Notes under the pieces: generated by a model
What the model saw: the letters and a program-made list of their open reading frames with translations, nothing else
What the model was told of the DNA's origin: nothing
Databases searched by the model: none
In this document: one piece after another, positions 850 through 3,840 of the stretch
Numbering within the stretch: position 1 is the stretch's first letter
How the letters are laid out: every line of letters begins with the position of its first letter
Assembly (NCBI GenBank): GCA_964534625.1
Contig: CAZHRF010000017.1
Location: forward strand, 1-58,217
DNA: 58,217 nucleotides
Source of the DNA: an uncultured archaeon
Lineage (GTDB): Archaea > Asgardarchaeota > Heimdallarchaeia > Heimdallarchaeales > Heimdallarchaeaceae
Direction: 5' to 3'
Made by a program: the position numbers and the translations under genes

Positions 850-1332
850 TTAATCTAGTTTTTTTCCTAATTGTTTTCTTATTCTGCCTGAACTTATTTT
901 AATGCCTCTCTTATCATAAACAAAAGGTACAACTAGTACTAATAATTGATCTAAACCTTTCATTGCTCGTAATTTGTTGATTTCAACTCCTGTTGAATAT
1001 GTTTCTTCTGTTACCACGATACCTTCTGCTGTTTTATCTGTTAAAGCTGGTCCATATCGGTCTTTTATTGCCATAAGTTCATAATCTGTGGATCCTCTTT
1101 GTTCAAGAAACCGCCTAACATTTTCTTTGCGTTGTTCAAAGTTCTGCATTAAAAAGAGAAATTTATCTCGAGGTCGCATTCTTCTTGCAAAATCATCCGT
1201 AGTAATACCAACGCGAACTCGTTTTGAGAGAGACATGGCGGCTTCTAATAAAGCTCTATGACCATCATGGATGTGATCGAATGTTCCACCTAATAGTACT
1301 TCGTTTAACCAAGGCAAAGAAGACACCTGCAC
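850..1332 (-). CDS. coaD: Archaeal-type phosphopantetheine adenylyltransferase
   Basis: GGTFDHIHDGH (HxGH nucleotidyltransferase), D.YGP, VTEET and KISSGRIR motifs. Confidence 0.85.
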   Translation of the reverse strand: MQVSSLPWLNEVLLGGTFDHIHDGHRALLEAAMSLSKRVRVGITTDDFARRMRPRDKFLFLMQNFEQRKENVRRFLEQRGSTDYELMAIKDRYGPALTDKTAEGIVVTEETYSTGVEINKLRAMKGLDQLLVLVVPFVYDKRGIKISSGRIRKQLGKKLD

Positions 1333-1438
1333 TAAAACTTAACAGATACACTATAAACTTTTTTCTTGCTTTCACAGAAAAAAATTTTTAGTGCAAAATT
1401 AAAATTACTAATTATCTCAAATCATGCAACTAGCAATG

Positions 1439-1565
1439 TTTCCAGGTTCGGGATGGGTCTGGGTATTACCCTGACACTATGGCCGCGTCGAAACGCAGCG
1501 AAGGGTTCTTCCCAAGTCCTCTCGGAACTCAGTACAAAACCAAACGTAGTCAGACTTGACTTTCC
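1439..1565 (-). rRNA. rrf: 5S rRNA gene, circularly permuted (3' half, UUCG linker, 5' half)
   Basis: Minus strand 1488-1439 = ACGCGGCCAUAGUGUCAGGGUAAUACCCAGACCCAUCCCGAACCUGGAAA, the 5S 5' half with the conserved CCGAAC loop C. Minus strand 1565-1493 = GGAAAGUCAAGUCUGAC...GUAC...GGGAA...UUCGCUGCGU, the 5S 3' half. Helix I GCUGCGU/ACGCGGC is closed by UUCG at 1492-1489. Confidence 0.88.
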
Positions 1566-1719
1566 CGATCATCAGGACGCATCCAGATGATTTCTGTCAT
1601 TGCTGGATAATCAGCAGTAGAGTGGTTTTTTTTTCTTTTAAAAATGTTACTTTCTTGAAGAATATTGTCATTAATAAACTTAATAGGGCTTGCTAGACCA
1701 CAATTAAAATGAATTAATA

Positions 1720-1820
1720 TGGTGCCCCGAGACGGATTTGAACCGCCGCCTAGGGATTACTGTATGAATATAAAATAATCATTCCACAGTCCCCAATTCT
1801 AGCCACTATACTATCGGGGC
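1720..1820 (-). tRNA. tRNA-His(GUG) with a 26-nt canonical 37/38 intron (1783-1758) and encoded CCA
   Basis: Acceptor stem GCCCCGA/UCGGGGC, T arm GGCGG-UUCAAAU-CCGUC, anticodon GTG at 1787-1785, BHB formed by CUGU/ACAG with GGA and UAA bulges, 3' end ACCA. Confidence 0.95.
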
Positions 1821-2437: not shown

Positions 2438-2968
2438 TCATATATCCAGTCCTTCATCATCTATAATCATCATGCGAACAAGATTATTGAAAGCTTTCTC
2501 TGTATTAGTCCCTTCTTTAGCGGATGTAAATATATATTCTGCATTCCCATGGTACTCTACCAACTGTTGCATATCTTTTTCATCTACTTCAATGTTTTGT
2601 AAATCTATCTTATTAGCGATAAATACAATAGGTTTTTTGCCAACCACATCCACGAAAGAGTCTACCCAAGAAAACAATTCTTGCTGGGTTTTGTAATCTG
2701 TTGAATCACATATTGCCAAAGCTCCTGATGCAGCGAAGTAATATTTACTTCTTACAGCTTTGAAAACCGTTTGCCCTCCTATATCCCAAATCGACAAAGT
2801 AACTTGATAATCCATATAGTCTATCTCTTTTTTCATTATTGTTGTTCCTAATGTTATCTGATATACTGGACTGAAATACCCAGTTACAAAGCGCCTTACT
2901 GTAGACGTCTTTCCCACACCTGGAGGACCGATTAACATTACTTTCTTTGTTGCTTTCATCAAGTACAT
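2438..2968 (-). CDS. Rab-like small GTPase
   Basis: G1 GPPGVGKTS, G3 WDIGGQ, G4 NKID, G5 TSAK. Confidence 0.9.
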   Translation of the reverse strand: MYLMKATKKVMLIGPPGVGKTSTVRRFVTGYFSPVYQITLGTTIMKKEIDYMDYQVTLSIWDIGGQTVFKAVRSKYYFAASGALAICDSTDYKTQQELFSWVDSFVDVVGKKPIVFIANKIDLQNIEVDEKDMQQLVEYHGNAEYIFTSAKEGTNTEKAFNNLVRMMIIDDEGLDI

Positions 2969-2994
2969 CCTTTCCGATTATTTGTAGTTTATAT

Positions 2995-3840
2995 TTAATA
3001 AAAACTTATTGAGGCATAACCGACAACTTGTGATTTGTTTCCCGATACTTCTCCTGAAGTTGAGTAACCAAGTATTTTAACTTGATTCCTACCTGATTTT
3101 TCAGCTGCAATCATAGTAGCTAATATTGGCCCATATCCGCACATGGTTACTTTTAGCTGATCTTTAATTTCATACATTTTTTTACCACTCATCTGTTCAA
3201 TAGCTTGTAATACTTTCTCATCTTTTTGTTTTGCCTGTTCATGTGGTTCGTAGTGGGTGAAATCCGAGCTTGCTATAACAATGGCATTCTTATCTTTCAG
3301 TACTTTAGCTAATGTTTCTCCAAGAGATTTTGCGTGCTCATAGTTTTGTCTTGTAATAACTATTGGAACAAAATCAAAGTTGTTTTTGAGAATATACTGG
3401 AGAAACGGTAATTGTACTTCTACCGAATGTTCTTTTTCGTGAGATTCATCGTTTTTTTCAATTATATGATTATCTGCAACAAGCTGATCAGTTATTTCAT
3501 GATTAATTGACACATCTCCAAAAGGAGTCTCCCATTGGGTTACATTCTTTGGAACCGCTATTATTGGACCATATCCTCTATGATTCGGCCCAATAACAAT
3601 TATGGTGTCTGGTTCGTCATATTTACTTAGCTCTAGATAACTCATAGCTGCAATTGGGCCAGAATAAATATATCCTGCGTGAGGAACGACCAAAAAAGGT
3701 GTTTTTCCTTGGATTTTTTTAACTTCTCCTGGCATTTTTTTTGGTCCATACTCTGATAAGAAACTATTTTTAATCAAATCTCTTAATCTTTCTTTGTGTT
3801 TTGGATAAAAATGTCCTGCCACTGCTGCTATTCGTTTCAT
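2995..3840 (-). CDS. amrB: MEMO1 family protein (AmmeMemoRadiSam system protein B)
   Basis: AVAGHFYP, PHAGYIYSG, GPNH, EHSVEVQLPFLQ, SSDFTHY, CGYGP and VVGYA motifs. Confidence 0.92.
   Translation of the reverse strand: MKRIAAVAGHFYPKHKERLRDLIKNSFLSEYGPKKMPGEVKKIQGKTPFLVVPHAGYIYSGPIAAMSYLELSKYDEPDTIIVIGPNHRGYGPIIAVPKNVTQWETPFGDVSINHEITDQLVADNHIIEKNDESHEKEHSVEVQLPFLQYILKNNFDFVPIVITRQNYEHAKSLGETLAKVLKDKNAIVIASSDFTHYEPHEQAKQKDEKVLQAIEQMSGKKMYEIKDQLKVTMCGYGPILATMIAAEKSGRNQVKILGYSTSGEVSGNKSQVVGYASISFY

What the first reader, a model, noticed from the sequence alone, without database searches (positions are those of the whole stretch)
1439..1565. Circularly permuted 5S rRNA gene with native ends sealed by a UUCG tetraloop
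Seen: on the minus strand the 3' half of a 5S rRNA (1565-1493) precedes the 5' half (1488-1439). The normal 3' and 5' termini are joined as GCUGCGU-UUCG-ACGCGGC, a helix I capped by a UUCG loop. The other helices still pair: GUCAGG/UCUGAC, CCAG/CUGG, GGUUU/GAACC, CUGAGUUC/GGACUUGG, loop E GUA/GAA and loop C CCGAAC. The break lies in the A-bulge of helix III, with GGAAA present at both new ends; one circle turn (1565-1444) is 122 nt, which is 5S size. Established: permuted 5S genes are known from some algal organelles, and permuted tRNA and SRP RNA genes from archaea. I do not know of a permuted 5S gene on an archaeal chromosome. Inference: intact pairing suggests a functional gene, giving either a permuted linear 5S or a covalently closed circular 5S. 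Standard rRNA finders would probably report only a partial hit.
Basis: partly seen in the sequence, partly recalled or inferred. Interest (0 to 1): 0.93.

Follow-up and report, generated by a model that had tools for sequence, protein, structure and literature searches.

The report
Permuted 5S rRNA gene, ring-forming
This Heimdall-group Asgard archaeon encodes its 5S ribosomal RNA back half first, between cut signals of the tRNA-splicing type. A normal 5S can therefore arise only by cutting and rejoining the transcript, most likely into a closed 121-base ring, which explains why 5S genes seemed to be missing from these relatives of eukaryotes.

Summary
On the minus strand, 1560-1493 is the 3' part of a 5S rRNA, 1492-1489 is a UUCG cap on helix I, and 1488-1441 is the 5' part.

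- **Detection:** Rfam's 5S model gives only two sub-threshold hits.
- **Structure:** all five helices are recovered without bias from 24 homologues. 96.5% of cells pair and 26 of 35 pairs show compensatory change.
- **Copies:** a second copy lies on contig C3. No colinear 5S was found in this genome or in two single-contig relatives.
- **Distribution:** my model of the permuted form hits 80 of 83 genomes of the class and most Asgard families. Rfam's colinear model hits exactly the complementary families.
- **Processing signal:** leader and trailer pair. A 4-bp helix flanked by two 3-nt bulges (bulge-helix-bulge) sits at the break. Cutting there and joining gives CCUGGA·AGUCAAG, identical to colinear 5S.
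- **Enzymes:** the genome encodes two EndA paralogues and RtcB.
- **Family peculiarity:** this family has an extra conserved leader hairpin.

This scan has found the same thing before on other DNA (160 notes, at least 110 genomes). I found no publication of it in the paper library I could search.

The parts
1635..1645 (-). A/T-rich TATA-like box (AUUUUUAAAAG), about 35 nt upstream of the leader helix. Putative own promoter.
   Evidence: Read by eye. Relatives carry a similar GATTAAAAAAC box at a comparable distance. Not tested.
1598..1604 (-). Leader strand of the outer leader-trailer helix (AGCAAUG)
   Evidence: Pairs with 1438-1432. In the family alignment A3, 9 of 10 pairs of this helix show compensatory changes.
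1591..1597 (-). ACAG-AAA module. This is a first copy of 'helix strand plus 3-nt bulge', whose CAG can pair with CUG 1445-1443.
   Evidence: CAG is invariant in the 15 distinct family sequences, and the fourth pair forms in only 8 of 15. Its role is unresolved.
1568..1590 (-). Family-specific leader hairpin (UCAUCUGGA-UGCGU-CCUGAUGA)
   Evidence: 88.5% of cells paired, 5 of 10 pairs with changes on both sides. Absent from other Asgard families, except for an analogous module in f18.
1564..1567 (-). H: leader strand (CGGG) of the 4-bp central helix of the bulge-helix-bulge motif
   Evidence: Pairs with CCUG 1446-1443. 100% paired in the family. It changes together with its partner across the phylum: CGUG:CACG, CCGG:CCGG, CUGG:UCAG, CCGU:GCGG.
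1561..1563 (-). B1: 3-nt bulge AAA. Predicted 5' cut between 1562 and 1561.
   Evidence: Position and size are conserved in 32 loci of some 20 families. The cut position is inferred from the canonical rule, after the 2nd bulge nucleotide.
1493..1560 (-). 5S rRNA 3' part: helix III closing G, helix II 3' strand, helix V, loop E, helix IV, helix I 3' strand
1489..1492 (-). UUCG tetraloop capping helix I where colinear 5S has its free ends
   Evidence: Caps in relatives are mostly of UNCG type (UUCG, UGCG, UACG) and reach about 30 nt in one Loki-like genome.
1441..1488 (-). 5S rRNA 5' part: helix I 5' strand, loop A, helix II 5' strand, loop B, helix III, loop C
1443..1446 (-). H': CCUG, partner of H. 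It overlaps the 3' strand of helix III (CUGG 1445-1442).
   Evidence: The overlap means the cut-signal fold and native helix III exclude each other. Their energies lie within 1-3.5 kcal/mol.
1440..1442 (-). B2: 3-nt bulge GAA. Predicted 3' cut between 1441 and 1440.
   Evidence: Joining the two cuts gives CCUGGA·AGUCAAG, the sequence of colinear 5S.
1432..1438 (-). Trailer strand of the outer helix (CAUUGCU)
1378..1404 (-). T-rich tracts downstream, a putative archaeal terminator
   Evidence: Read by eye. Relatives have T runs right after the trailer helix. Not tested.

Best explanation
This is one of the two functional 5S rRNA genes of the organism, and the only kind of 5S gene it has. It is transcribed from its own promoter as a precursor of roughly 200 nt in the order leader, 3' part, UUCG, 5' part, trailer.

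Leader and trailer pair. The leader's CGGG pairs with CCUG at the end of the 5' part. This forms a 4-bp helix flanked by two 3-nt bulges (AAA and GAA), that is, a bulge-helix-bulge motif.

The tRNA-splicing endonuclease (two EndA paralogues, probably a heterotetramer) cuts in both bulges. RtcB then joins the new ends. The product is a covalently closed 121-nt 5S rRNA. Its helix III and AA bulge are restored exactly, and its helix I is permanently capped by UUCG. This ring then serves in the ribosome.

Shown here: the gene order, the fold with covariation, conservation, mutual exclusivity with colinear genes, the motif, and the presence of the enzymes.

Inferred: the cuts, the ligation, and that the ring is the mature form.
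For: 1. Structure and covariation.
2. Sole 5S. RF00001 finds nothing else in this genome or in the single-contig relatives G004 and G007.
3. Distribution. Model R1 hits 80 of 83 class genomes and 14 of 14 high-quality ones. In 151 genomes of the phylum, R1-positive families and RF00001-positive families are exact complements.
4. The motif. In 32 loci of some 20 families, a leader-trailer helix of up to 17 bp flanks (outside f1, f3 and f18 it directly abuts) a 4-nt H:H' helix with two 3-nt bulges, and H changes together with H'. In this family the outer helix has 9 of 10 compensatory pairs.
5. The junction. The predicted cuts give a junction with no nucleotide missing or added relative to colinear Asgard 5S and to colinear 5S genes of other archaea.
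6. Enzymes. Two EndA-family genes of 183 and 191 aa, 21% identical, each with the N-terminal and catalytic domains, plus RtcB.
7. The cap. Helix I caps are stable UNCG loops or variable extensions, not processing sites.
8. Precedent. The permuted SRP RNA of Thermoproteus is cut by the splicing endonuclease and stays circular (PMC4731332).
9. Published puzzle. 5S genes 'could not be predicted' in the closed Heimdallarchaeum genomes (PMC8813620).
Against:
- In this window the flanking helix does not abut H. A 7-nt linker and a hairpin intervene, giving a three-way junction, and the outer helix is only 7 bp. The motif is therefore relaxed, not canonical.
- H' overlaps helix III, so the cut-signal fold must compete with the native fold.
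- Within the family H:H' is invariant, so its covariation comes only from comparison across the phylum.
- Circular 5S species seen in Sulfolobus and Halobacterium were read as degradation products (PMC12558985).
- A circular 5S inside a ribosome has never been shown.
Confidence: 0.72

Rival explanations
1. The precursor is cut at the same two bulges but the ends are not joined, or the ring is re-opened. The ribosomal 5S would then be a linear, permuted RNA, nicked in the helix III bulge and held together by base pairing.
For: Brown-algal mitochondrial 5S is permuted in the final linear product (PMC4267664). Helices II and III and the pair G1560:C could hold a nicked molecule together. My data do not distinguish a ring from a nick.
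Against: From general knowledge: fragments released from bulge-helix-bulge motifs in archaea (introns, pre-16S, pre-23S) are ligated by RtcB, which is present here. The closest precedent stays circular. The ends are juxtaposed within a helix, which is ideal for ligation.
Confidence: 0.14
2. In this family the cut is made at the first module (ACAG-AAA, 1597-1591), which directly abuts the outer helix. The mature ring would then be about 155 nt and keep the leader hairpin as an expansion at the helix III bulge. Alternatively, this larger ring is an obligatory intermediate from which the hairpin is later removed as a bulge-helix-bulge intron.
For: The hairpin and the CAG-AHA module are conserved with covariation in the family. 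In genus g4 the first module with the outer helix forms a textbook motif (UCAG:CUGA, with bulges ACA and AAA). An unrelated family (f18) shows the same duplicated module, CGUG-AGA, hairpin, CGUG-AGA. In the larger ring the hairpin would be flanked by a canonical intron-type motif.
Against: The second copies in genus g5 have the hairpin outside a canonical inner helix (GUGGU:ACCAC) that abuts H, so there it must be removed, yet their cores are nearly identical to the first copies. All other families lack the hairpin. In this window the fourth pair of the first module is an A-G mismatch.
Confidence: 0.08
3. The leader-trailer helix is a processing stem for other nucleases, not EndA. The resemblance to a bulge-helix-bulge motif would then be a by-product of the duplicated GGAAA left by the rearrangement that created the gene.
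For: The repeat GGAAA at both ends could be a relic of a tandem duplication. 5S maturation in other archaea uses other nucleases (FAU-1 in Thermococcales, cited in PMC7758197).
Against: H follows H' through at least five different sequence pairs across the phylum, while bulge sizes stay at 3 nt. A relic would decay, not covary.
Confidence: 0.05
4. Pseudogene, retrocopy or assembly artefact.
For: None beyond the odd gene order and the sub-threshold Rfam scores.
Against: Two copies with non-disruptive differences, compensatory changes, and conservation in 80 of 83 class genomes including single-contig assemblies. There is no other 5S gene.
Confidence: 0.01

Closest known systems
Permuted, circularised SRP RNA of Thermoproteus tenax / T. 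uzoniensis (Plagens et al. 2015, eLife, PMC4731332; abstract read)
   Same: An essential structured RNA gene with its 3' part before its 5' part. [quoted passage not shown] The product is a functional circular RNA. This also explained a 'missing' gene.
   Different: A different RNA (5S rRNA, a ribosome component). The distribution covers most families of a phylum, not a few species. This family has an extra leader hairpin and a duplicated cut module. Circularity has been demonstrated there and is only predicted here.
Circularly permuted tRNA genes of Cyanidioschyzon merolae (Soma et al. 2007, as cited in PMC4267664)
   Same: Permuted gene order. Bulge-helix-bulge-type processing of the leader and trailer, through a circular RNA.
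   Different: There the ring is only an intermediate and is re-opened at the acceptor stem. Here the old ends are sealed by a 4-nt UNCG loop with no sign of a re-opening site. That case is eukaryotic nuclear; this one is archaeal.
Circular pre-16S/pre-23S rRNAs and circular or permuted mature 23S rRNA in archaea (PMC7758197, PMC12918454)
   Same: rRNA excised at a bulge-helix-bulge motif in a processing stem and ligated. Circular rRNA can reside in ribosomes.
   Different: Those genes are colinear. PMC12918454 states explicitly that this pathway applies to 16S and 23S 'but not 5S rRNAs'. Here the gene itself is permuted, so ligation is needed to recreate helix III.
Permuted mitochondrial 5S rRNA of brown algae (Rfam mtPerm-5S; Valach et al. 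2014, PMC4267664)
   Same: A 5S rRNA whose helix I is closed as a hairpin, so that the ends lie elsewhere. It too was missed by standard models.
   Different: There the ends sit at the three-way junction (between the alpha and gamma domains), the product stays linear, and no splice motif is involved. Here the break is in the helix III AA bulge, with a splice motif.
Circular forms of colinear 5S rRNA in Sulfolobus and Halobacterium (Danan et al. 2012, as cited in PMC12558985)
   Same: Covalently circular 5S-derived RNAs exist in archaea.
   Different: They come from colinear genes, have heterogeneous junctions, and are interpreted as degradation-related. They are not the obligatory route to a functional molecule.

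Membership tests
5S rRNA (Rfam RF00001) | Three-way junction with helices I-V and loops A-E | tested here: met
   RNAalifold recovers all helices. 96.5% paired and 26 of 35 pairs compensatory. A joint fold with colinear genes gives the canonical 5S structure.
5S rRNA (Rfam RF00001) | Conserved loop C (CCGAAC) and loop E (GUA/GAA) sequence motifs | tested here: met
   Invariant or nearly invariant columns in A2. They align with colinear Asgard 5S.
5S rRNA (Rfam RF00001) | Score at or above the curated gathering threshold (38 bits) on the genomic sequence | tested here: not met
End-to-end alignment was used instead.
5S rRNA (Rfam RF00001) | It is the organism's ribosomal 5S (incorporated in the 50S subunit) | not testable with these tools
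   Indirect only: no other 5S gene in this genome or in closed relatives, and exact complementarity with colinear genes across the phylum.
Permuted RNA genes matured by the tRNA-splicing machinery (Thermoproteus SRP RNA type) | The 3' part is encoded upstream of the 5' part on one strand and in one transcription unit | tested here: met
Permuted RNA genes matured by the tRNA-splicing machinery (Thermoproteus SRP RNA type) | Bulge-helix-bulge motif at the termini: a 4-bp helix between two 3-nt bulges on opposite strands, flanked by helices | tested here: inconclusive
   The central helix CGGG:CCUG and the bulges AAA and GAA are present. In this window the flanking helix is separated from H by a linker and a hairpin (three-way junction). 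Most other families, and the second copies of genus g5, have the canonical form.
Permuted RNA genes matured by the tRNA-splicing machinery (Thermoproteus SRP RNA type) | Splicing endonuclease and RtcB-type ligase encoded by the organism | tested here: met
   Two EndA paralogues with PF02778 and PF01974. RtcB at 564 bits.
Permuted RNA genes matured by the tRNA-splicing machinery (Thermoproteus SRP RNA type) | Junction-spanning RNA, circular product | not testable with these tools
A junction scan of metagenome contigs returned only colinear genes of other archaea.
mtPerm-5S (brown-algal permuted mitochondrial 5S) | Ends at the junction of the alpha and gamma domains, with helix I replaced by a 5' hairpin; a linear product | tested here: not met
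   The break here is in the helix III AA bulge (beta domain). Described in PMC4267664.

The most novel reading that the evidence does not exclude
In most Asgard lineages sampled, including the whole Heimdall class that holds the closest known relatives of eukaryotes, the ribosome carries a covalently closed circular 5S rRNA made by the tRNA-splicing enzymes from a permuted gene. The permuted-versus-colinear state is a rare genomic change that splits Asgard families cleanly. In this family maturation may go through two splice events: ring formation, then removal of a hairpin 'intron'.
Probability: 0.65. Interest if true: 0.9.

Novelty: new variant of a known kind. Interest (0 to 1): 0.85.

Why it matters
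- **It solves a stated puzzle.** 5S genes 'could not be predicted' in the closed Heimdallarchaeum genomes (PMC8813620).
- **It shows a gap in annotation.** Rfam-based pipelines systematically miss the 5S gene of most Asgard archaea, and genome-quality standards count 5S.
- **It would be a first.** This would be the first 5S rRNA that must be spliced to exist, and probably the first circular 5S in a ribosome. That would tie ribosome biogenesis to the tRNA-splicing machinery in the lineage nearest to eukaryotes.
- **It offers a phylogenetic character.** The clean split between permuted and colinear families is a discrete marker for Asgard evolution.
- **It is directly testable.** One RT-PCR or one RNA-seq mapping would settle it.

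Tried and rejected
- **Junction scan.** I scanned metagenome contigs for CAGACNCATYCCGAACCTGRAAGTYAAG. All 15 hits are colinear 5S genes of other, GC-rich archaea. This shows nothing about the ring, but it does show that the predicted junction equals a natural colinear sequence.
- **Strong RF00001 hits in the class.**
  - G070:C798 and G047:C310 (80 bits) look bacterial, with hairpin-plus-T-run terminators. I judged them contaminants by eye.
  - G033:C117 (48 bits) is a colinear 5S on a contig whose 356-aa ORF is only 41-48% identical to every Asgard genome. It is therefore foreign, not a colinear copy of the family.
  - G021:C90 (38.4 bits) is an artefact of a permuted locus.
- **Specificity control for R1.** In 101 genomes of a euryarchaeal phylum, the hits of 40-52 bits that I inspected are colinear or tandem colinear genes.
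- **Energy comparison.** The native fold and the two cut-signal folds lie within 1-3.5 kcal/mol, which is not decisive.
- **Box C or kink-turn in the leader hairpin.** CUGAUGA occurs in this window but is not conserved in relatives. Rejected.
- **MFE pairing of UCGGGA with loop C.** Seen in some MFE folds, but not conserved where the leader has CAGG. Rejected.
- **ARAGORN.** It does not find the neighbouring intron-containing tRNA, although Rfam does.
- **Naming the families.** Attempted through RtcB loci. Only two same-order genomes could be tied to record titles ('Candidatus Heimdallarchaeota archaeon'). Other family labels remain anonymous.

Full report
**What is there.** On the minus strand of the window the order is as follows.
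- 1645-1635: a TATA-like box.
- 1604-1598: leader helix strand AGCAAUG.
- 1597-1591: the module ACAG-AAA.
- 1590-1568: a hairpin.
- 1567-1564: CGGG.
- 1563-1561: AAA.
- 1560-1493: the 3' part of a 5S rRNA.
- 1492-1489: UUCG.
- 1488-1441: the 5' part of the 5S rRNA, which ends in CCUG-GA.
- 1438-1432: trailer strand CAUUGCU.
- After that: T-rich tracts.

Rfam at its curated thresholds reports only a tRNA in the whole window. With relaxed thresholds the 5S model gives two abutting sub-threshold hits of 24.3 and 20 bits, against a cut-off of 38.

**Is it real?** A second copy, 92.5% identical, lies on contig C3 (64937-65058). Its flanks are unrelated except for the leader and trailer elements. 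Every relative in the family, and then in sister families, matches the permuted order colinearly.

RNAalifold on 24 cores, given no structure, returns helices I, II, III, IV and V, plus the two pairs that bridge the new ends. Counting on that structure gave these results:
- 96.5% of cells are paired.
- 26 of 35 pairs have changes on both sides.
- 0 of 500 shuffles reach the observed values.
- Slid controls pair only 32-48%.

I cut the window sequence in the UUCG loop and re-ordered it. It then aligns end to end with eight colinear Asgard 5S genes. Identity is 61-65% (48% to one divergent gene), and there is no gap at the new junction. The joint consensus fold is the textbook 5S structure.

**Is it the only 5S?** RF00001 at E up to 10 finds nothing in this genome (89.8% complete) except the two permuted loci. 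The single-contig relatives G004 and G007 likewise have only two permuted loci each.

A covariance model of the permuted core (R1) finds full-length matches of 70-142 bits in 80 of 83 genomes of the class, and in 14 of 14 high-quality ones. RF00001 passes its cut-off in only four of those 83 genomes:
- two look like bacterial contaminants;
- one sits on a foreign contig;
- one is a marginal artefact of a permuted locus.

Across 151 genomes of the phylum the two models are complementary.
- R1-positive: families f1-f5, f7-f10, f12-f14, f18, f19 and f21-f26.
- RF00001-positive: f11 (25/26), f17 (17/19), f20, f15, f27 and f28.
- No family is positive for both, apart from f4, whose single RF00001 hit (G021:C90, 38.4 bits) is the marginal artefact noted above.

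I inspected 20 loci from other families by eye, and all are permuted. As a specificity control, R1 in 101 genomes of a euryarchaeal phylum gives only hits of 40-52 bits; the four best, which I inspected, are colinear or tandem colinear genes.

**Organism.** Two genomes of the same order carry the record title 'Candidatus Heimdallarchaeota archaeon'. The window also encodes Asgard-typical small GTPases.

**How it most likely works.** In 32 loci from some 20 families the same anatomy recurs.
- A leader-trailer helix of up to 17 bp flanks a 4-nt segment H; outside families f1, f3 and f18 the two directly abut.
- H pairs with the last nucleotides of the 5' part (H').
- Each strand has a 3-nt bulge just 3' of this helix.

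This is the geometry of the archaeal bulge-helix-bulge motif. The geometry itself is established knowledge, not tested here.

H follows H' through different sequences: CGUG:CACG, CCGG:CCGG, CUGG:UCAG, CCGU:GCGG and CNGG:CCUG. Cutting after the second bulge nucleotide on both strands and joining the ends gives ...GGA·AGUYAAG or ...GGAA·GUYAAG. This is exactly the sequence of colinear 5S at the helix III AA bulge. For this window the ring is 1561-1441, 121 nt.

The genome encodes two divergent EndA paralogues of 183 and 191 aa. They are 21% identical, and both carry the N-terminal and catalytic domains. It also encodes RtcB. From general knowledge, two such paralogues suggest the heterotetrameric enzyme type, which tolerates relaxed motifs.

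The caps on helix I are stable UNCG loops, or variable extensions of up to about 30 nt. This argues against re-opening there. The closest precedent is the permuted SRP RNA of Thermoproteus. It is cut by the splicing endonuclease and stays circular (PMC4731332).

**Peculiarities of this family.** Here the outer helix does not abut H, although it is well supported (9 of 10 pairs compensatory). Between them lie a conserved NCAG-AHA module and a hairpin (5 of 10 pairs compensatory).

The module is a second possible H plus bulge. Together with the outer helix it forms a textbook motif in genus g4. Cutting there would give a ring of about 155 nt. In that ring the hairpin would be flanked by an intron-type motif and could be removed in a second step. 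An unrelated family (f18) shows the same duplicated module.

The second copies of genus g5 place the hairpin outside a canonical inner helix. I therefore take the hairpin to be leader, not mature RNA.

H' overlaps the 3' strand of helix III, so the cut-signal fold and the native fold exclude each other. Their computed energies differ by only 1-3.5 kcal/mol.

**What is not shown.** No RNA data could be obtained. A junction scan of metagenome contigs was uninformative. The cuts, the ligation and the ring as the mature ribosomal form are therefore inferences.

**Known or new?** Full-text searches found no description of a permuted or obligatorily circular archaeal 5S.
- A 2026 paper states that circularisation applies to archaeal 16S and 23S 'but not 5S rRNAs' (PMC12918454).
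- Wu et al. 2022 report that 5S genes 'could not be predicted' in their closed Heimdallarchaeum genomes (PMC8813620).

The mechanism class is known from permuted tRNA and SRP RNA genes. I therefore rate this a new variant of a known kind.

This scan has noted the same feature many times on other DNA: 160 notes in at least 110 genomes. Some of those follow-ups report environmental RNA that contains the ring junction. I could not check that claim.

Noticed in passing
window 1723-1820 (-): A tRNA gene (Rfam, 46.9 bits) with an insert of about 29 nt in the anticodon loop and the anticodon region CUGUGGA, so probably tRNA-His(GUG). It lies about 100 nt upstream of the 5S unit on the same strand. 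ARAGORN does not find it. It needs the same splicing enzymes.
   Followed up: partly
L027 about 1501-1638 (= G033:C117:8277-8414, -): A colinear 5S (48 bits) with a 23-nt hairpin insert exactly at the helix III AA bulge. The insert is flanked by CACG-GAA and CGUG-AAA, that is, an intron-type bulge-helix-bulge motif at the same site where Asgard genes are permuted. The contig's 356-aa ORF is only 41-48% identical to all Asgard genomes, so the contig is probably from another archaeal lineage.
   Followed up: partly
L032:1452-1723 (-) (G070:C510): Two tandem permuted 5S units, each with its own leader-trailer helix and cut motif. Helix II differs between the units by compensatory changes.
   Followed up: partly
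L094 (G099) and L093 (G197), Loki-like family f14: The permuted 5S of G099 has an extra segment of about 30 nt between CCGAA and CCCGGAA in loop C/helix III, with GGGAA repeated at its end. This is possibly a second small intron. G197 has an extension of about 30 nt in place of the helix I tetraloop.
   Followed up: no
L080 (G093, family f18): The leader reads outer helix, CGUG-AGA, hairpin, CGUG-AGA, core. This is the same duplicated cut module as in the window's family, but with unrelated sequence.
   Followed up: partly
G000:C21:28499-28726 (-) and G000:C1:136969-137235 (+): Two divergent splicing-endonuclease paralogues (183 and 191 aa, 21% identity). The second has a weak Sen15-like match. 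This suggests a heteromeric enzyme.
   Followed up: partly
window 2438-3840 (-): A Memo-family gene (281 aa) next to an Arf/Ras-like small GTPase (176 aa), both typical Asgard 'eukaryotic signature' genes. The ORF at 850-1332 (-) carries a GGTFDHIHDGH motif of the nucleotidyltransferase (PPAT-like) type.
   Followed up: no
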